The notes beneath the pieces were generated by a model. That model made no database searches. It was given only the letters and a program-made list of their open reading frames with translations, and was not told the origin of the DNA. From contig JBGAQA010000016.1 of the NCBI GenBank assembly GCA_044220955.1, positions 38,286 through 102,285 on the forward strand: a stretch of 64,000 nt of DNA. Direction: 5' to 3'. Positions 16,993 to 21,858 of the stretch are shown piece after piece (within the stretch, counting starts at the first letter, position 1; the number at the start of each line of letters is the position of its first letter). Origin of the DNA: Sandaracinaceae bacterium (lineage in GTDB: Bacteria; Myxococcota_A; Polyangia; Polyangiales; Sandaracinaceae). A program made the translations under genes and the position numbers.

Positions 16993-17445
16993 ATGACCGC
17001 GTCGTTCGACGTCAAGCGCATCCTCTGTCCGACCGACTTCTCGCCCGCGTCCGAGGGCGCCATCCGCGCCGCCGAGACGGTCGCGGAGCGCTTCGGCGCG
17101 CGCCTCGAGCTCCTGCACGTCTGGTCGCCCCCGGTGATGGTCGCCCTCGACGCGGCCGTCCTCCCCTCGCCCGCCGAGATCGTGCAGCTCACGGCGGGCC
17201 TCGAGCAGGCGCTCGCGGGGGCCAGCAAGAAGCTCTCGCTGCCCGCCGATCGCGTCGATCGACACCTCGTGCAGGGCGTGGCGTGGCGCGAGGTCACCGA
17301 GTTCGCGAGCGCGAAGGGCTTCGATCTGATCGTGATGAGCTCGCACGGTCGCTCGGGCATCGCGCACTTCGTGATGGGGAGCGTGACCGAGCGGGTGGTG
17401 CGTACGTCCAAGGTGCCGGTGCTCGTCGTGCCCGCCGTCGGCTGA
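16993..17445 (+). CDS. Universal stress protein (UspA family)
   Basis: RILCPTDFS, LLHV, DLIVMSSHGRSG..MGSVTERVVR...PVLVV. Confidence 0.93.
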   Translation: MTASFDVKRILCPTDFSPASEGAIRAAETVAERFGARLELLHVWSPPVMVALDAAVLPSPAEIVQLTAGLEQALAGASKKLSLPADRVDRHLVQGVAWREVTEFASAKGFDLIVMSSHGRSGIAHFVMGSVTERVVRTSKVPVLVVPAVG

Positions 17446-17595
17446 GCCGTCAGGCCGGCGGGACGCCCAGCTCCGCGCGGACCTCGTCGACCCGCGGGCC
17501 GCCGTGATCTCTCGCCGCTCCGTGGAAGGGTGACGCTCGACGTCCGGCGCGCAGGACGCGGGTGTCCGGCGATCCGACGCCGCGGAGCGGGGGCC

Positions 17596-18393
17596 TCAGC
17601 GCTCGGGAGCGAGCACCGCGTCGTCGAGCTCGACCTCGATGGGCGCGTGGTCGCTGCCGAGGACGGCCGCGTGGATGCGCGCGCCCCGCAGGAACGGCGC
17701 TGCGCCGGGCGAGACGAGCGCGAGGTCGATCCGCCAGCCGACGTTCTTCTCGCGGACGCCGTAGCGCTGGCTCCACCACGAGTAGCGTAGAGGAGCGGGG
17801 TCGAACACGCGAAGCGAGTCCACCCAGCCGCGCGCGAGCCAGCGCAGGAGCTCCTTGCGCTCGTTCGGCAGGAACCCGCTCGTCTTCTCGTTCTCCTTCG
17901 GACGCGCGAGGTCGATCGGATAGGGCGCGGTGTTGAAGTCGCCCATCACGACGATCCGCTCGCCCCGCGCGAGCCCGTCCTCCAGCTTGTGGAACAGGGC
18001 ACGGTAGAAGCGCAGCTTGTAGGGCACGCGGGAGTTGTCGCGGTCCTTGCCGCTCCCGTTCGGGAAGTACCCGTTCACGAGGGTGAGCGCGCCGACGCGC
18101 ACGATCTGAAGGCGCCCCTCGACGTCGAAGCTGCGCGCGCCGAGCGAGCTCTCGGCGTGGTCGAGCGGCCGGTTCGAGTACACGGCGACGCCGCTGTACC
18201 CGGGCCGCTCCGCGTGGACGAAGTGGGTGTGCGGGTGGCTCTTCGGCGCTCGCATCCTCGGCGAGAGCTGCTCGGGTCGCGCCCGGGTCTCCTGCACCCC
18301 GATCAGATCGGGGCGGGCCTTCGCGAGGAAGCGGGTCCAGCCCTTCTTCTCGATCGAGCGGAGCCCGTTCACGTTCCACGAGATGATTCGCAC
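17596..18393 (-). CDS. xth: Exodeoxyribonuclease III (AP endonuclease)
   Basis: ISWNVNGLR, QETR, GYSGVA, YFPNG, GDFN, GWRID, SDHAP. Confidence 0.95.
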   Translation of the reverse strand: MRIISWNVNGLRSIEKKGWTRFLAKARPDLIGVQETRARPEQLSPRMRAPKSHPHTHFVHAERPGYSGVAVYSNRPLDHAESSLGARSFDVEGRLQIVRVGALTLVNGYFPNGSGKDRDNSRVPYKLRFYRALFHKLEDGLARGERIVVMGDFNTAPYPIDLARPKENEKTSGFLPNERKELLRWLARGWVDSLRVFDPAPLRYSWWSQRYGVREKNVGWRIDLALVSPGAAPFLRGARIHAAVLGSDHAPIEVELDDAVLAPER

Positions 18394-18462
18394 CGACGGA
18401 TCCTAGCGCGGGCGAGCCGACGACTCTTCTCCACGGCACGCGGGGCGTCGTACCGTGTGGCG

Positions 18463-18969
18463 ATGGCGCTCCTGGCTCCGTTCCCCGTCCAGTGGTCGAT
18501 CGTCGGCGAGGTCGCAGTGTTCGACGGTCGGCTCGACGCGATCGGCGAGGCCGGCGCGAGGCTCGAGGCCGACGTCGTCGCCGCGCCGGGCGACGAGCTG
18601 CGCATCGACATCCGGCAGGACGACGGGAGCGAGGTCGCGATCGGGCTCGTACGCGTCGAGTCGGCCGATCCGATCACCGGGATGGAGGTCGCCTTCGTCG
18701 CCCTCGGGATCGATCTCGAGCTGCTGTCGATGCTCGCCGGGGCGACACGCCGCGCGAAGGACTCGGTGGTGCCCAAGATGCCGCCGCTCCCGGGCGCCGG
18801 TGATCCCGGTGACGCCGGGCGTCTACGAGACCGGTGGCGTCACGCTGCGCCTCGATCGCGCGCGAAGCGCGTCCACGGAAAAGCGAAGGGCGACCAGGCC
18901 TCTCGGCGGTCGCCCTTCCAGCGGGTGTCACCCCGCTGCGGTCAAGCGGTGGGAGGGGTCAGGTGGTAA
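18463..18969 (+). CDS. Hypothetical protein, PilZ-like beta domain; probable +1 frameshift near 18792
   Basis: GRLDAIGEAGARL...GMEVAF resembles PilZ; GC3-rich codon usage shifts to another frame after CTCCCGGGCGCCG. 3' end uncertain. Confidence 0.45.
   Translation: MALLAPFPVQWSIVGEVAVFDGRLDAIGEAGARLEADVVAAPGDELRIDIRQDDGSEVAIGLVRVESADPITGMEVAFVALGIDLELLSMLAGATRRAKDSVVPKMPPLPGAGDPGDAGRLRDRWRHAAPRSRAKRVHGKAKGDQASRRSPFQRVSPRCGQAVGGVRW
18878..18918 (-). terminator. Intrinsic-terminator-like hairpin (minus-strand T-tract)
   Basis: Perfect 11-bp inverted repeat GAAGGGCGACC (18885-18895) / GGTCGCCCTTC (18908-18918), followed on the minus strand by GCTTTTCC. Confidence 0.5.
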
Positions 18970-19403
18970 CGACCTCCGTATCGAAGACCTTCGAATCACC
19001 CTGACGACGTTCGGTACAGTTCACTGTCACGATCCTCCCCCGGCCATGCCGGCGTCTCCGGGCTTCTGGCTCTGTGGGCGAAGGATGACTCCTCCGCACA
19101 CGGCCAGGCTCGCGTCGAGACGTTCCTGGGTGCGGGGCGCACCATTGCGCCACGCGGTTGAGACACGGCTCGATCCGTCCTTCGTGCGCGACGCGCGGCA
19201 CCCTCTTTTCAGGGAGGGGACCTGCGGCGTGAAGAATCCACCATTCGCGTAGCGAATCGCGGTTTCGCACCATTGCGGGGTCGGGCCCATCCGCCGTGTC
19301 AGTCCGGACCAAAGCCCGGACTCCTCGGATCATACGGACGCACACACCAAAGTAAAGATCCGTGCGAGAAGAACGCACCCGCCTGGAACTGGAAGGACGG
19401 CCG
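18907..19403. ncRNA. Candidate large (~500 nt) highly structured non-coding RNA, unassigned class
   Basis: Lower GC, no GC3-biased frame; closing long-range helix, more than 10 nested hairpins and three long-range complementarities read by eye (see findings). Confidence 0.55.
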
Positions 19404-19434
19404 GGGCGTTCGGCATGATCGCCTCGCAGCGCAC

Positions 19435-21858
19435 GTGAGCGAGCCCGAGAGCGAAGAAAAGGCCCAGAAGGCCGGGTCCCACGGGCCCGACTCGGAGATG
19501 TTCTCCGTCCCGCGCCCCCGCAAGGCCATCCCCCAGCTCAAGGACGTCCCTCTGACGAAGGAGGAGATCCGTCGGCGCAAGATGGTCCGCACGGCGATGA
19601 TCGCCTCGGTCGTGATCGCGGCCCTGACCGCGGCCTTTCTCCTCTACCGCGCCAACCACCGACGCGAGATCGAAGCGGCGCGCGACGAGGCGGAGCGCAC
19701 GGGGCGGATGGCCGCGATCGAGCGCGCGATCGCCCTGCTCGACGGAGAGAACGGCGCTGCCGACGTCGCGCTCTCGGCGCGCCTGCACGCGATGGCGGAG
19801 CTGGCCGGTGCGGAAGGGCACCGCGCGCCGGCCGAGGCCCTGCTCGGGCAGCACGATCCTTCCGGTGACGGCGCCTCGGATCACCGGATCGCCGAGACGT
19901 ACCTCGCGCTCGCGCGCGGCGACGCCGGCGAGGCGTCGCGCGTGGCTGCGCTGCTCGTCCCGGGCCGAGGGCCGCGCGCCGCCGAGGCGGGACACGCCGT
20001 CGCACGTGCGCAGCTCGCGATCGGTAGCGTCGTGCAGGCGCGGACGGCGGCGGACGCCGCGCGGGCGGGCGCGCCCGACGCGCCGCGGCACCTCGCGCTC
20101 GTGGTGGAGATCGCCGCGCGCGGCGGCGGGGAGGCGCCCGAGGCCCGGGGCGACGAGACGGTCGTCCGCCTCGCGCGGGCGCGCGCCGCGATCGAGGCGC
20201 TCGGGCCGGCCAGCGACGTGCGCCCCGACGCCGAGGCGGTGCTCGCCGCGGGCGACGCCACGCCGGCCGAGCACGGCTGGGCCGAGCTCGCCCTCGGGAT
20301 TTCGGACGCGATCGACGGCGACACGCTGCACGCCTCCGCGCACCTGGCCGCCGCTTCGGAGCACCGGCCGCCTGGCGACGAGCTCTTCACCATCGAGCTC
20401 GCGGAGGCGCTCTTCGACGTCGGCCGCCGGCTCGACGCCGCGACCGCGATGGAGCCGCTGACCGGCCACGTCTCGACCGACACGTCGCGACGCGCGCTCC
20501 TGACTGCGCGGCAGGAGCTGCTCCGCGGGGACGCCGAGGCGGCGTCGCGCGCCGCCGAGACGGCCGTGGGCTCGCCGCGCCGCACGCTGGTGCAGGCGCG
20601 CATCGCGCTCTTGCGAGACGACTTCGCCCACGCGCGTCCCTGGCTGGAGGAAGTGACGGACTCCGCGGCGCTCGGCTCGTACGCCCACCTCGAGCTCGTG
20701 CAGCTGCTGGTCCTGACCGGAGACACCGCCGGCGCGCTCGCGTCGGTGCAGAGCGCGCTCGACGCGGCGCCGACGCACCCGCGCCTCGCGGCGGCAGCGG
20801 CCCACGCGCTCAGCGCATCCGGGCAGCACGACGAGGCGCTCACCGTCCTGGGACGCGCGGGTGACGCGCACGAGGGCGAGCCGCTGGTGCTCGTGGCGCG
20901 CGCGCGCGTCCATGCCCGCGCGGCCGAGTGGAACCAGGCGTACGAGGCCTTCCAGGCGGCACAGGGCGCGACCGAGGGCGAGCCGCAGATCAACACGGAG
21001 CGCGGGCAGGCCGCGCAGATGCTCGGGCACCTCGACGAGGCGCGCGAGGCCTATGCGGCCGCGCTCGCCGTCGATCCGCACCAGCCCACGGCGCTCGTCG
21101 CGCTGCTCGGCGTGCAGGTCGAGACGCACGACCTCGAGGGCGCGATGCAGTCGCTCGCGCGGATCGACGAGGCGCACCTGGTCGATCCGGTGATCGATCA
21201 CCTCCGGGCGCGCGCGCTCGTGGACCGTCAGGCCGGCGAGAGCGGCGTCGCGCGCGTCGAGGAGGCCATCGGCCGCAGCCCCGACGACGGCGAGCTGCGC
21301 TTCGCGCTCGCGCGGCTCTACGCGCAGGCCGAGCGCTGGTCCGACGCGGCCGACGCGTACTACGCCGCGCTCTCGCGGACGACCGACCGCCGCCTCGCGC
21401 TCGGCATGCGCGCGATCGCCCTCGCGCGCGCGCGGCGCGCGCCGACGGTGCAGGCGATGCTCGACCAGCTGCGGGCGACGGTCTCCACGGAGTCGCCGCT
21501 CTTGCCGCGAGACACCGCGATGGTCGCCGTCGCCTCCGCCTGGGTGGAGTGGGACGCCGACGCCTACGGGCGTGTGACGATCTTCGCACGCCAGGCGATC
21601 GACGCGGTGCCGGACGACCCCGACGCGACGCTGCTGCTCGCCTACGTCGACGAGAACGCGCACCGCGACCCGAGCGAGCGCCTGCGCGTCATCCACGACG
21701 CGTCGATCGAGGCGCGCGGCTGGCTCGCCTCGCTCGCGGCGGCGACGCCGCTCGACGCGGCGGGCTGCACGGACGCGCGCGCGTACCTCGCCGCGGCCCC
21801 GAGCGGCCGCTTCGCCGCCGAGCTCGGCCGCCGCGTCGCGAGCTGCGCGGCGCCCTGA
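19435..21858 (+). CDS. Membrane-anchored TPR-repeat protein
   Basis: N-terminal basic patch plus TM (TAMIASVVIAALTAAFLLY), long Ala-rich TPR-like helices; GTG start at 19435 inferred. Confidence 0.75.
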   Translation: MSEPESEEKAQKAGSHGPDSEMFSVPRPRKAIPQLKDVPLTKEEIRRRKMVRTAMIASVVIAALTAAFLLYRANHRREIEAARDEAERTGRMAAIERAIALLDGENGAADVALSARLHAMAELAGAEGHRAPAEALLGQHDPSGDGASDHRIAETYLALARGDAGEASRVAALLVPGRGPRAAEAGHAVARAQLAIGSVVQARTAADAARAGAPDAPRHLALVVEIAARGGGEAPEARGDETVVRLARARAAIEALGPASDVRPDAEAVLAAGDATPAEHGWAELALGISDAIDGDTLHASAHLAAASEHRPPGDELFTIELAEALFDVGRRLDAATAMEPLTGHVSTDTSRRALLTARQELLRGDAEAASRAAETAVGSPRRTLVQARIALLRDDFAHARPWLEEVTDSAALGSYAHLELVQLLVLTGDTAGALASVQSALDAAPTHPRLAAAAAHALSASGQHDEALTVLGRAGDAHEGEPLVLVARARVHARAAEWNQAYEAFQAAQGATEGEPQINTERGQAAQMLGHLDEAREAYAAALAVDPHQPTALVALLGVQVETHDLEGAMQSLARIDEAHLVDPVIDHLRARALVDRQAGESGVARVEEAIGRSPDDGELRFALARLYAQAERWSDAADAYYAALSRTTDRRLALGMRAIALARARRAPTVQAMLDQLRATVSTESPLLPRDTAMVAVASAWVEWDADAYGRVTIFARQAIDAVPDDPDATLLLAYVDENAHRDPSERLRVIHDASIEARGWLASLAAATPLDAAGCTDARAYLAAAPSGRFAAELGRRVASCAAP

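What the first reader, a model, noticed from the sequence alone, without database searches (positions are those of the whole stretch)
18878..19403. Candidate new large structured ncRNA (~500 nt, closed multi-domain fold with pseudoknot-type pairings)
Seen: this interval is less GC-rich than its neighbours, has no codon-biased frame and is nearly tiled with complementary segments. The ends pair: TTCCAGCGGGTG 18916-18927 with CACCCGCCTGGAA 19376-19388, or alternatively 18907-18921 with 19389-19403. Nested stems: GGGAGG 18951-56/CCTCCC 19034-39; GTCAGG 18958-63/CCTGAC 19000-05; TCGAAG/CTTCGA 18981-94; ACAG/CTGT 19016-27; CCGGC/GCCGG 19040-52; long irregular arm CGTCTC 19053-58/GAGACG 19117-22; multibranch GGGTGC 19128-33/GCACCC 19198-203; ATTCGC/GCGAAT 19243-57; AGTCCGG/CCGGACT 19301-22; CGGATC/GATCCG 19326-62; GTGCG/CGCAC 19362-78. 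Long-range matches: GACACGGC 19162-69 (hairpin loop) with GCCGTGTC 19293-300; TCCGTAT 18975-81 with ATACGGA 19332-38 (loop); TCCGGGCTT 19057-65 with AAGCCCGGA 19312-20. Knowledge: I find no canonical RNase P, tmRNA, SRP or group I/II intron signatures. Inference: an unclassified large RNA in the size range of OLE/ROOL-type RNAs. Strand is unresolved: G-U wobbles mostly favour +, the terminator-like hairpin at 18878-18918 favours -.
Basis: partly seen in the sequence, partly recalled or inferred. Interest (0 to 1): 0.85.

Follow-up and report, generated by a model that had tools for sequence, protein, structure and literature searches.

The report
New folded RNA with built-in mini-gene
The flagged gap holds a real, previously undescribed folded RNA gene of about 445 bases, shared by many relatives of this soil and sludge myxobacterium, which unusually carries its own ribosome landing site and a tiny reading frame inside its fold.

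Summary
Window 18876-19322 is a stand-alone RNA gene on the MINUS strand, with a conserved sigma-70-type promoter (19356-19329) and an intrinsic terminator (18918-18879). It matches no Rfam 15 family; tmRNA, RNase P and 6S RNA lie elsewhere in the genome. A covariance model of its core found one copy in 71 of 151 genomes of the same order (17 of 24 families) and none in the sampled genomes outside that order. Contigs from RNA libraries of four studies cover it. It is not purely non-coding. Its 3' third holds a strong Shine-Dalgarno, an ATG/GTG start and a 14-24-codon frame. Frame and length are kept in all 55 distinct versions, while the peptide sequence is not. An internal GGAGG and a C/U-rich anti-SD flank the stop codon. 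Best reading: a new structured riboregulator gated by translation of its mini-ORF. Function is inferred, not shown.

The parts
19351..19356 (-). -35 hexamer TTTACT of the RNA's own promoter
   Evidence: Promoter scan, 1 site found against 0.1 expected. The hexamer is conserved in 6 of 6 same-genus sequences while the 16-nt spacer varies. Equivalent TTGACA/TTGGCG -35 boxes sit on the same strand in other genera.
19329..19334 (-). -10 hexamer TATGAT
   Evidence: Other lineages have TATCCT, TACGAT or TATCTT 17 nt after their -35 box.
18876..19322 (-). The RNA gene: inferred transcript of about 445 nt, start near 19322 and end near 18878
   Evidence: Start inferred from the -10 box; end inferred from the terminator. 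A 412-nt contig from an RNA library is 100% identical to 18874-19285. Fold z-score is -4.65. It occurs once in the own genome.
19301..19322 (-). P1, 5' terminal hairpin (AGUCCGG/CCGGACU)
   Evidence: Present in the unconstrained MFE. Same-genus homologues have other sequences that still pair. Length and sequence vary between lineages.
19293..19299 (-). P2 5' strand ACACGGC (long-range helix closing the four-way junction)
   Evidence: 5 of 7 pairs change on both sides; pair types include CG/AU/GC, GC/CG/UA and GC/AU/GU.
19163..19169 (-). P2 3' strand GCCGUGU
19264..19288 (-). P3 (GGG/CCC) and P4 hairpin CGCA-AUGG-UGCG, holding the near-invariant CCGCAAUGGUGCGAA (19278-19264)
   Evidence: The 15-mer is exact in 45 of 401 order genomes, and the reversed control in 0. 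P4 shows one compensatory GC to AU change, in L024.
19175..19262 (-). P5 arm, expanded in this lineage (a 4-bp hairpin in the short forms)
   Evidence: The model alignment places 82 inserted nt here. The base of the helix covaries, 3 of 4 pairs.
19136..19151 (-). Second GCA-AUGG-UGC hairpin (P7 position)
   Evidence: Read directly from the sequence and seen in the folds. Other lineages have NUGG-loop hairpins at P7 or P8a.
19117..19122 (-). P8 5' strand CGUCUC
   Evidence: 5 of 5 pairs change on both sides.
19053..19058 (-). P8 3' strand GAGACG
19066..19107 (-). P8a (CUGGC/GCCAG) with a lineage-specific inner hairpin
   Evidence: 5 of 5 pairs change on both sides. Coordinates.
19040..19052 (-). 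P9 hairpin CCGGC-AUG-GCCGG, just 5' of the Shine-Dalgarno
   Evidence: Sequence-invariant in 25 of 25 sequences, so covariation says nothing for or against it. In the window's MFE an extended SD/anti-SD helix forms in its place.
19033..19039 (-). SD1, GGGAGGA (core GGAGG at 19038-19034)
   Evidence: A purine-rich SD follows P9 in every homologue.
18959..19024 (-). Mini-ORF: GTG start plus 20 further codons, then TGA (MNCTERRQGDSKVFDTEVVTT*). An in-frame GTG at 19030 would add 2 codons.
   Evidence: 55 distinct homologous frames of 14-24 codons, with the frame kept across 8 length classes.
18972..18977 (-). SD2, internal GGAGGU, 8 nt before the last sense codon
   Evidence: Its offset from the start codon is always 2 mod 3 (26 to 53 nt). 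Its spacing to the stop codon is 11 nt in most, 8 or 14 in others.
18951..18958 (-). Anti-SD CCCCUCCC directly after the stop codon
   Evidence: Pairs with SD1 in the MFE. A C/U-rich anti-SD lies within 45 nt of the stop in 48 of 54 homologues.
18879..18918 (-). Intrinsic terminator: stem 18918-18885, then GC and UUUU (18882-18879)
   Evidence: Compensatory changes in the same-genus alignment. A terminator is found by a strict rule in 48 of 54 homologues. The RNA-library contig ends at 18874.

Best explanation
Window 18876-19322 (minus strand) is a stand-alone gene for a previously undescribed structured RNA of the order that includes Sandaracinaceae (Polyangiales by the titles of homologous records). 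It has its own sigma-70-type promoter and an intrinsic terminator. The 5' two-thirds fold into a conserved core. That core is a terminal hairpin (P1); a four-way junction closed by a 7-bp long-range helix (P2, with P3, the near-invariant P4 hairpin with loop AUGG, and an expandable arm P5); and a second module (P7, P8, P8a, P9). The 3' third is a ribosome-binding site (SD1) and a 14-24-codon mini-ORF. The ORF's stop codon lies between an internal SD-like GGAGGU (SD2) and a C/U-rich anti-SD, and the terminator follows. Shown: conservation, covarying structure, strand signals, conservation of the reading frame, and presence in RNA libraries. Inferred mechanism: the anti-SD can pair with either SD1 or SD2, and the invariant P9 competes with an extended SD1/anti-SD helix. 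Ribosome access to the mini-ORF would then depend on the state of the structured core (through a ligand, a protein, temperature or a trans RNA). Translation of the ORF would in turn remodel the 3' domain. The peptide itself is probably not the product. The act of translation, or a ribosome held at the stop codon by SD2, is probably part of how the RNA works as a regulator.
For: Not coding overall, and lower GC than the flanks. No Rfam family at gathering thresholds over the whole window, and only chance-level hits at E up to 10. Single copy in the own genome. Found in 5 of 5 genomes of the same genus at 71-83% identity, with colinear conserved blocks in other genera. Model R1 (168 positions, 41 pairs) matches the window at 19030-19299 (-) over its full length, 55 bits, E about 1e-11. 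It matches 71 of 151 genomes of the order, one match each, in 17 of 24 families. In the phylum sample it matches 9 of 151 genomes, all 9 from the same order. Covariation on 25 full-length sequences, of which 9 were not used to build the model: 94.3% of cells paired against 35-48% when partners are slid; 23 of 41 pairs with changes on both sides against 3-10; score 0.320 against 0.06-0.08; 0 of 500 shuffles reach it. An independent MAFFT alignment with a hand-drawn structure gives 92.6% against 42-49%. The unconstrained MFE of the window transcript already contains P1, P2, P4, P8 and P8a, z -4.65. Strand: conserved -35 and -10 hexamers with a variable spacer, a terminator with compensatory changes followed by a U-run, and SD plus start codon, all on minus; 52 G-U cells against 31 A-C cells. 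Mini-ORF: a start codon 6-11 nt after the SD core in 52 of 53 pattern hits and in 10 of 10 model-anchored members. There are 55 distinct ORFs of 14-24 codons. The other two frames stay open as long in only 25 and 14 of 55. The distance from start codon to SD2 takes 8 values (26-53 nt), all 2 mod 3. ATG and GTG interchange at the start. Variable sites are spread evenly over codon positions (9/9/10, 8/6/5, 5/10/5, 14/17/13), so the peptide sequence is not under purifying selection. RNA libraries from 4 studies hold contigs on the element: 18874-19285 at 100% identity, 19034-19305, 18944-19119, and 18928-19174 from a relative.
Against: No transcript ends, translation or function were measured. 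The RNA-library evidence consists of assembled contigs, which cannot show strand, ends or level, and RNA libraries can hold DNA. The model-derived alignment leans towards the modelled structure, and 16 of its 25 rows built the model. P9, P4 and both SD elements hardly vary, so the proposed switch rests on sequence complementarity, not covariation. The G-U against A-C strand count is only 1.7 to 1. The frame argument assumes that the 8 length classes arose independently. Detection is patchy in the two largest families of the order (2 of 23 and 4 of 23), so 'order-wide' overstates it. The 3' domain differs in detail between lineages, so one common switching scheme is an extrapolation.
Confidence: 0.7

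Rival explanations
1. It is simply the mRNA of a micropeptide gene. The 14-24-residue peptide is the functional product, and the structured 5' region is a riboswitch-like or thermosensor-like 5' UTR that controls its translation.
For: Strong SD, conserved start codon, and conserved frame and length. Weak recurring residues at both ends (M-N/D-S/C-S/T at the start, L/P-E-V-x-x-S/T at the end). A four-way junction with invariant junction nucleotides resembles an aptamer.
Against: Variable sites are spread evenly over the three codon positions in all four clades tested. The conserved residues coincide with nucleotide motifs that have RNA roles: E-V is GGAGGU, and Glu is always GAG. In the short forms the conserved residues coincide with a 13-bp helix. 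The peptides are hydrophilic, of low complexity, and rich in codons that are rare in a 73% GC genome. No modifying or partner genes are conserved nearby.
Confidence: 0.15
2. It is a cis-acting leader (a leader-peptide attenuator or riboswitch) that controls read-through of its terminator into the gene downstream on the minus strand.
For: The layout of short ORF, competing hairpins and terminator is that of a classical attenuator. In several genomes a gene follows on the same strand: Exo_endo_phos in the window's genus and a histidine kinase in genus g7.
Against: The downstream gene differs between lineages. It is convergent in many: ABA4-like on the opposite strand in the short forms, Hsp70 and PurH on the opposite strand in two same-genus genomes. 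Synteny to the 3' side breaks exactly at the terminator within the genus. The mini-ORF has no run of one regulatory codon.
Confidence: 0.06
3. One reading: a closed RNA of about 526 nt (18878-19403), possibly on the plus strand, whose ends pair. An ornate non-coding RNA of the OLE/ROOL type.
For: The plus strand also folds better than shuffles (z -2.76 and -3.26), as any strand complementary to a structured RNA would. The complementary segments exist in the sequence.
Against: The promoter, terminator U-run, SD and ORF are all on minus and are conserved. The 3' arm of the proposed closing helix (19376-88) lies upstream of the -35 box. Minus folds better. No Rfam large-RNA family matches.
Confidence: 0.03
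4. It is DNA-level regulation only: a long divergent promoter and operator region between the TPR gene and the minus-strand genes, with palindromes serving as protein-binding sites.
For: Two copies of the palindromic CGCA-N4-TGCG. The divergent TPR gene is syntenic in two genera.
Against: Compensatory changes in helices whose arms lie 130 nt apart, G-U pairs, the terminator, a frame-conserved ORF, contigs from RNA libraries, and flanking genes that change between lineages while the element stays.
Confidence: 0.02

Closest known systems
Dual-function regulatory RNAs with an embedded small ORF, such as Staphylococcus aureus RNAIII (about 514 nt, encodes delta-haemolysin), SR1 and SgrS (recalled from general knowledge; no paper was read here)
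   Same: A stand-alone transcript of several hundred nt with its own promoter and terminator. Many conserved hairpins. An internal ORF of about 20 codons with its own SD. C-rich segments able to pair with SD-like sequences.
   Different: No sequence or structure similarity (no Rfam hit). The peptide here is not conserved and is hydrophilic. The ORF is wrapped by SD/anti-SD pairings at the 3' end. No targets are known. Hfq was not found in 5 of 5 carrier genomes.
Large lineage-restricted structured RNAs of unknown or partly known function (OLE, ROOL, GOLLD, raiA motif; lineage-named motifs such as Bacteroidales-1 and Chloroflexi-1) (recalled)
   Same: Size class, restriction to one lineage, covariation-supported multi-helix fold, recovery from RNA libraries, and no obvious function.
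   Different: As I recall them, those families have no conserved SD, start codon and frame-preserved ORF. None of their Rfam models matches.
Leader-peptide and translational attenuators (trp/his leaders, ermC-type leaders) (recalled)
   Same: A short translated ORF whose translation is coupled to alternative SD/anti-SD or hairpin pairings, with an intrinsic terminator just downstream.
   Different: No conserved regulated gene lies downstream. A 250-400-nt conserved structured domain lies upstream. There is no run of regulatory codons.
tmRNA (Rfam RF00023)
   Same: A structured RNA of about 360-450 nt, found once per genome, that carries a short internal reading frame.
   Different: tmRNA has a tRNA-like domain and no SD or start codon. 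Here there is an SD and an ATG/GTG start, no tRNA-like end and an intrinsic terminator. ARAGORN finds nothing here, and the canonical tmRNA is on another contig.

Membership tests
Any Rfam 15 family (including OLE, ROOL, GOLLD, raiA, riboswitches, T-box, ribozymes) | A covariance-model score at or above the family's gathering score | tested here: not met
   0 matches at gathering thresholds in the whole window. At E up to 10 on 18600-19600 there are only ftsZ-DE (22 bits against 72 needed, lying on the terminator hairpin) and a miRNA model.
tmRNA | A tRNA-like acceptor/T-arm domain and a tag frame without SD or start codon; one gene per genome | tested here: not met
   ARAGORN finds 0 genes in 17000-21000. 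RF00023 matches another contig, G000:C166, at 118.9 bits. The element has an SD plus ATG/GTG start and ends in a terminator.
RNase P RNA (bacterial type A) | A match to RF00010 | tested here: not met
   RF00010 matches G000:C293 at 238.7 bits, not this locus.
6S RNA | A match to RF00013: a long irregular hairpin with a central bubble, about 185 nt | tested here: not met
   The best RF00013 match in the own genome is on C257 (42 bits, just under the cut-off). Two relatives match above the cut-off at other loci.
CsrB/RsmZ-type protein sponge | The cognate CsrA protein is present in carrier genomes, and the RNA has many GGA loops | tested here: not met
   CsrA (PF02599) was found in 1 of 5 carrier genomes. 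Three of the four genomes without it are rated 100% complete.
Hfq-dependent sRNA | Hfq is present in carrier genomes | tested here: not met
   Hfq (PF17209) was found in 0 of 5 carrier genomes.
Leader-peptide attenuator (cis) | A conserved regulated gene directly downstream on the same strand | tested here: not met
   Downstream genes differ and are often convergent.
Dual-function RNA (a kind, not a homology family) | An independent transcript with its own promoter and terminator | tested here: met
   Conserved promoter and terminator on the same strand. An RNA-library contig covers 18874-19285. Transcript ends were not mapped.
Dual-function RNA (a kind, not a homology family) | The embedded ORF is translated | tested here: inconclusive
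   Only evolutionary evidence: SD, start codon, frame and length are kept in 55 of 55 distinct versions, and 8 length classes are all in frame. There are no ribosome-profiling or peptide data.
Dual-function RNA (a kind, not a homology family) | A regulatory (base-pairing or protein-binding) activity of the RNA | not testable with these tools
   No targets could be tested.
Riboswitch | A conserved aptamer fold with invariant junction nucleotides, upstream of the controlled ORF | tested here: inconclusive
   A covarying four-way junction with near-invariant P3, P4 and junction nucleotides lies upstream of SD1. Ligand binding cannot be tested here.

The most novel reading that the evidence does not exclude
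A new class of riboregulator that uses a ribosome as part of its mechanism. A structured sensor core (the four-way junction with two UGG-presenting hairpin loops) gates loading of a ribosome onto a built-in mini-ORF. A perfectly placed internal GGAGGU then holds the terminating ribosome over the stop codon and anti-SD. The RNA would thereby report, or sequester, translational capacity. In six loci of other families it sits just downstream of the ribosome-associated ATPase gene ychF. The UGG loops could even read tRNA 3'-CCA ends as T-box leaders do.
Probability: 0.2. Interest if true: 0.9.

Novelty: new variant of a known kind. Interest (0 to 1): 0.72.

Why it matters
Myxobacteria of this order are major producers of natural products and common members of sludge, soil and sediment communities, yet almost nothing is known about their RNA regulators. 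This element gives a new RNA family of 350-650 nt with solid comparative support, one copy per genome, in at least 17 families of the order. It also gives a clear handle for experiments: a cultured Sandaracinus-type carrier, and defined promoter, helices, SD1, SD2, anti-SD and start codon. Its combination of a covarying ornate core with a frame-conserved but sequence-free mini-ORF is unusual. It makes the question of whether the act of translation is part of an RNA's mechanism directly testable. It also shows that annotation pipelines and Rfam currently miss a conserved gene in these genomes.

Tried and rejected
1. Rejected: one arm lies upstream of the promoter.

2. The 139-residue minus-strand ORF 18959-19378. 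Rejected as a gene: no codon-position GC bias, and it runs through the promoter. Only its last 21-23 codons are the conserved mini-ORF.

3. Rfam, tmRNA, RNase P and 6S. All are elsewhere in the genome or absent here.

4. CsrA sponge and Hfq-dependent sRNA. Their proteins were mostly or wholly not found in carrier genomes.

5. Cis attenuator. The neighbouring genes are not conserved.

6. Repeat or mobile element. The element is single copy.

A 168-position core model was built instead. It splits or misses the longest forms: genus g7 scored 0 of 5, and under the strict filters it missed G000 itself. Prevalence figures are therefore lower bounds.

8. RNA-library contigs gave no long, near-identical cover on the flanking genes in the four runs laid; one run gave only short pieces of 23-35 nt with mismatches there. 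Only one contig stops at the terminator, so this is no more than a hint of a 3' end.

9. RNAalifold on a plain MAFFT alignment of the short forms did not recover P2-P5 as drawn. The structure used was drawn by hand from compensatory changes and then tested.

10. P7 (GUGG/CCAC) is weakly supported: 87-89% of cells paired, with several unpaired departures.

11. Literature searches returned nothing on this RNA. Only search listings and abstracts were seen; no paper was read. Terms searched: Sandaracinus with noncoding RNA; myxobacteria, structured RNA, covariation; Sorangium, small RNA, RNA-seq, transcription start; Sandaracinus amylolyticus with transcriptom; Polyangiales with ncRNA.

12. Earlier findings of this scan held nothing on this element.
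Full report
WHAT IS THERE. The window has 73% GC. Between about 18840 and 19400 the three codon phases have nearly equal GC (0.55-0.73), while the flanks show one phase at 0.9-0.98. GC in this interval falls to 0.61-0.69. The interval folds better than dinucleotide shuffles on both strands, and better on minus: z -3.99 against -2.76 for 18878-19403, and z -4.65 against -3.26 for the redefined transcript 18876-19322. Rfam 15 gives no match at gathering thresholds anywhere in the window. On 18600-19600 at E up to 10 it gives only chance-level hits. The element occurs once in its own genome.

STRAND AND BOUNDARIES. An alignment with the five same-genus homologues (71-83% identical) shows a typical promoter signature on the minus strand. 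TTTACT (19356-19351) and TATGAT (19334-19329) are conserved, while the 16-nt spacer between them varies. The promoter scan finds this as the only site (1 found, 0.1 expected). At the other end, the hairpin 18918-18885 shows compensatory changes and is followed on the minus strand by GC-UUUU. Alignability, and with it synteny, stops exactly there. Other genera carry TTGACA or TTGGCG, then 17 nt, then TATCCT, TACGAT or TATCTT on the same strand. By a strict rule a terminator is present in 48 of 54 homologues. The gene is therefore about 19322 to 18878 on the minus strand, roughly 445 nt. The downstream plus-strand gene (TPR protein, GTG at 19435) has its own conserved upstream motif and is not part of the element.

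RELATIVES. Colinear conserved blocks were first seen by BLAST in other genera. A pattern built from the near-invariant motif found 18 named genome contigs, titled Sandaracinaceae, Polyangiales, Myxococcales and the like. The same approach found 21 metagenome contigs. A covariance model of the core (R1, 168 positions, 41 pairs) matches the window over its full length at 19030-19299 (-), 55 bits, E about 1e-11. It matches 71 of 151 sampled genomes of the order, one match per genome, in 17 of 24 families. In a phylum-wide sample 9 of 151 genomes match, and all nine belong to the same order. These are lower bounds. The strict filters missed the window's own genome and genus g7 (0 of 5), which do carry the element. 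In the two largest families only 2 of 23 and 4 of 23 genomes matched. The exact 15-mer CCGCAATGGTGCGAA occurs in 45 of 401 genomes of the order, and its reversed control in none. One genome used, G026 (locus L009), is unpublished. Its RNA region is identical to the public record behind L038, so no claim depends on it alone.

STRUCTURE. The 'short forms' (about 350 nt) define the core, and the window carries a 'long form' with expansions. The elements are as follows.
- P1 is a 5' hairpin.
- P2 is a 7-bp helix, in the window ACACGGC 19299-19293 with GCCGUGU 19169-19163. It closes a four-way junction that holds P3, P4 and P5.
- P3 is GGG(C)/(G)CCC.
- P4 is CGCA-AUGG-UGCG and is nearly invariant.
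- P5 is an expandable arm, with 82 extra nt in the window.
- P7 follows. Then come P8 (CGUCUC/GAGACG, 19122-17 with 19058-53), P8a (CUGGC/GCCAG) and P9 (CCGGC/GCCGG, 19052-40).

On a plain MAFFT alignment of 16 sequences with a hand-drawn structure, 92.6% of cells pair, against 42-49% when partners are slid. Twenty pairs change on both sides, against 6-11 in the slid controls. On 25 full-length matches aligned to the model (9 of them not used to build it), 94.3% of cells pair against 35-48%. Twenty-three of 41 pairs change on both sides against 3-10. The covariation score is 0.320 against 0.06-0.08, and 0 of 500 shuffles reach any measure. P2 has 5 of 7 compensatory pairs, P8 has 5 of 5 and P8a has 5 of 5. 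The caveat is that this alignment is fitted to the model. P9 is invariant and P4 almost so, with one GC to AU change in L024, so these two rest on sequence conservation. P7 is weak. The unconstrained MFE of the window transcript already contains P1, P2, P4, P8 and P8a. G-U cells outnumber A-C cells 52 to 31, a modest vote for minus.

Confirmed: 19301-22 (P1); 19162-69 with 19293-300 (P2, which is nested, not a pseudoknot); 19053-58 with 19117-22 (P8); 19040-52 (P9); 18951-56 with 19034-39 (anti-SD/SD1); 19243-57 (part of the lineage-specific P5 arm, compensated in L004 and L005). Not confirmed: the closing helix 18916-27 with 19376-88, and also 19326-62, 19362-78 and 18975-81 with 19332-38, because each has an arm in or beyond the promoter. 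Also not confirmed: 19057-65 with 19312-20, which is not kept in the same-genus homologues. Finally, 19128-33 with 19198-203 is incompatible with P2.

THE MINI-ORF. Directly after P9 comes a purine-rich SD (GGGGGAGGA). After 6-11 nt there is an ATG or GTG, followed by a short frame. In the window it is GTG 19024 to TGA 18961-18959, MNCTERRQGDSKVFDTEVVTT. A start codon at that spacing was found in 52 of 53 pattern hits (the 53rd was a false pattern hit) and in 10 of 10 further model-anchored members. The 55 distinct ORFs have 14-24 codons. The other two frames stay open as long in only 25 and 14 of 55. ATG and GTG replace each other, in one lineage through a 1-nt deletion that recreates a start codon. 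The amino-acid sequence is not conserved as a protein would be: variable sites per codon position are 9/9/10, 8/6/5, 5/10/5 and 14/17/13 in four clades. An internal GGAGG(U), which reads as '-E-V-', lies at an offset from the start codon of 26, 29, 32, 35, 44, 47, 50 or 53 nt. All eight values are 2 mod 3. If the eight classes arose independently, chance would give this about once in 2000. The motif ends 11 nt (in some lineages 8 or 14) before the stop codon, which is 5-11 nt before the last sense codon. That is the spacing an SD has to a P-site codon. A C/U-rich anti-SD follows the stop within 45 nt in 48 of 54 homologues; in the window it is CCCCUCCC at 18958-18951. In the window's MFE this anti-SD pairs with SD1, and part of P9 is drawn into that helix. 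In the short forms a 13-bp helix pairs ORF codons 8-12 with sequence after the stop, with one A-U to G-C covariation, and leaves CUCCCCC in the apical part.

EXPRESSION. Seven runs on record as RNA hold part of the stretch. Four were laid, each from a different study. A sludge metatranscriptome has a 412-nt contig 100% identical to 18874-19285. Another sludge run has 19034-19305 and 19000-19063. A sediment run has 18944-19119. An outdoor-sample run has 18928-19174 from a relative, with 14 differences. Contigs cannot show strand, ends or level, and RNA libraries can contain DNA. This is therefore support for presence in RNA preparations, not proof of a discrete transcript. The end of one contig at 18874, next to the terminator, is only a hint.

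CONTEXT. Flanking genes change between lineages.
- In the window's genus and in g7, a divergent TPR protein.
- On the same strand downstream, Exo_endo_phos in this genus and a histidine kinase in g7.
- In g3, a divergent HrcA.
- In the short forms, a Crp-like cNMP-binding regulator and a class II phosphodiesterase upstream, and a convergent ABA4-like gene downstream.
- In six loci of other families, YchF upstream, in three of them followed by YceI.

This argues for a stand-alone gene and against a cis leader. The recurrent ychF neighbourhood may be ancestral synteny and is only a lead.

WHAT IT IS NOT. tmRNA, RNase P RNA and 6S RNA are found on other contigs, and ARAGORN finds nothing here. 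CsrA was found in 1 of 5 carrier genomes and Hfq in 0 of 5, so CsrB-like and Hfq-dependent modes are unlikely.

MECHANISM (INFERRED). The conserved core looks like a sensor or scaffold, with covarying helices around invariant junctions and two hairpins that present NUGG loops. The 3' domain looks like a switch in which one anti-SD can pair with SD1 (closing the ribosome-binding site) or with SD2. The invariant P9 competes with the extended SD1/anti-SD helix. Frame and length of the ORF, but not its residues, are conserved, and SD2 sits at SD-to-P-site distance from the last codon. I therefore think that translation itself, possibly with a ribosome retained at the stop codon, remodels or stabilises the RNA, and that the RNA acts as a regulator whose state couples the core's input to translation.

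NOVELTY. There is no Rfam 15 family. Nothing on it appeared in five literature searches, for which only listings and abstracts were seen. Nothing on it is in this scan's earlier notes. By kind it is nearest to dual-function RNAs such as RNAIII and to the lineage-restricted large structured RNAs, but it is a member of none. I rate it a new variant of a known kind. If the ribosome-using mechanism holds, it would be a new kind.

Noticed in passing
window 18369-18969: Two overlapping candidate frames share the same GC3 phase: plus 17989-18969 and minus 18369-18776 (135 aa). The GC3 signal stops near 18780, and the tail of the plus frame (18878-18969) lies inside the conserved RNA. The minus-strand ORF is therefore the more likely gene. 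It would sit between the RNA's terminator and the Exo_endo_phos gene (17596-18393, minus). Neither frame has a Pfam hit.
   Followed up: partly
window 19385-19437: A conserved motif, GGAACTGGA ... CGTTCGGCATGAT, lies just upstream of the GTG start (19435) of the divergent TPR gene in all six same-genus sequences. It is probably that gene's promoter, which would leave a very short leader.
   Followed up: no
L086, L090, L092, L093, L098, L100 (upstream of the element): The ribosome-associated ATPase gene ychF lies just upstream of the RNA in six loci of other families. In L090, L093 and L098 a yceI-like gene lies between them. In L092 the ychF frame ends about 70 nt before the RNA core, leaving little room for a separate promoter.
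   Followed up: partly
L020, L032, L035, L083, L085, L087 (short-form clade): The neighbourhood recurs across these loci, though not every gene was seen in each. A Crp-like cNMP-binding regulator (L032, L083, L085, L087) and a class II cAMP phosphodiesterase-like MBL protein (L020, L032, L035, L087) lie upstream. An ABA4-like membrane protein is convergent downstream (all but L085).
   Followed up: partly
L044 (contig CAXMND010000133.1): A contig of a MAG labelled 'uncultured Coxiellaceae bacterium' carries a typical short-form copy of this element, cut off by the contig end. The contig is probably mis-binned.
   Followed up: no
G121 (contigs C113 and C269): One genome of the short-form genus has the invariant 15-mer twice, on two contigs. 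This is the only case of two copies among the 45 genomes with the motif.
   Followed up: no
window 19136-19151 and 19266-19277: Two hairpins share the same GCA-AUGG-UGC top. Other lineages also keep two hairpins with NUGG loops (at P4 plus P7 or P8a). UGG is complementary to CCA, so a loop-receptor contact, a shared protein site or a contact with tRNA 3' ends are all conceivable.
   Followed up: partly
window 18854-18919 (+): A weak Rfam match to ftsZ-DE (22 bits against 72 needed, E 0.12) falls on the terminator hairpin. It is judged a chance hit.
   Followed up: yes
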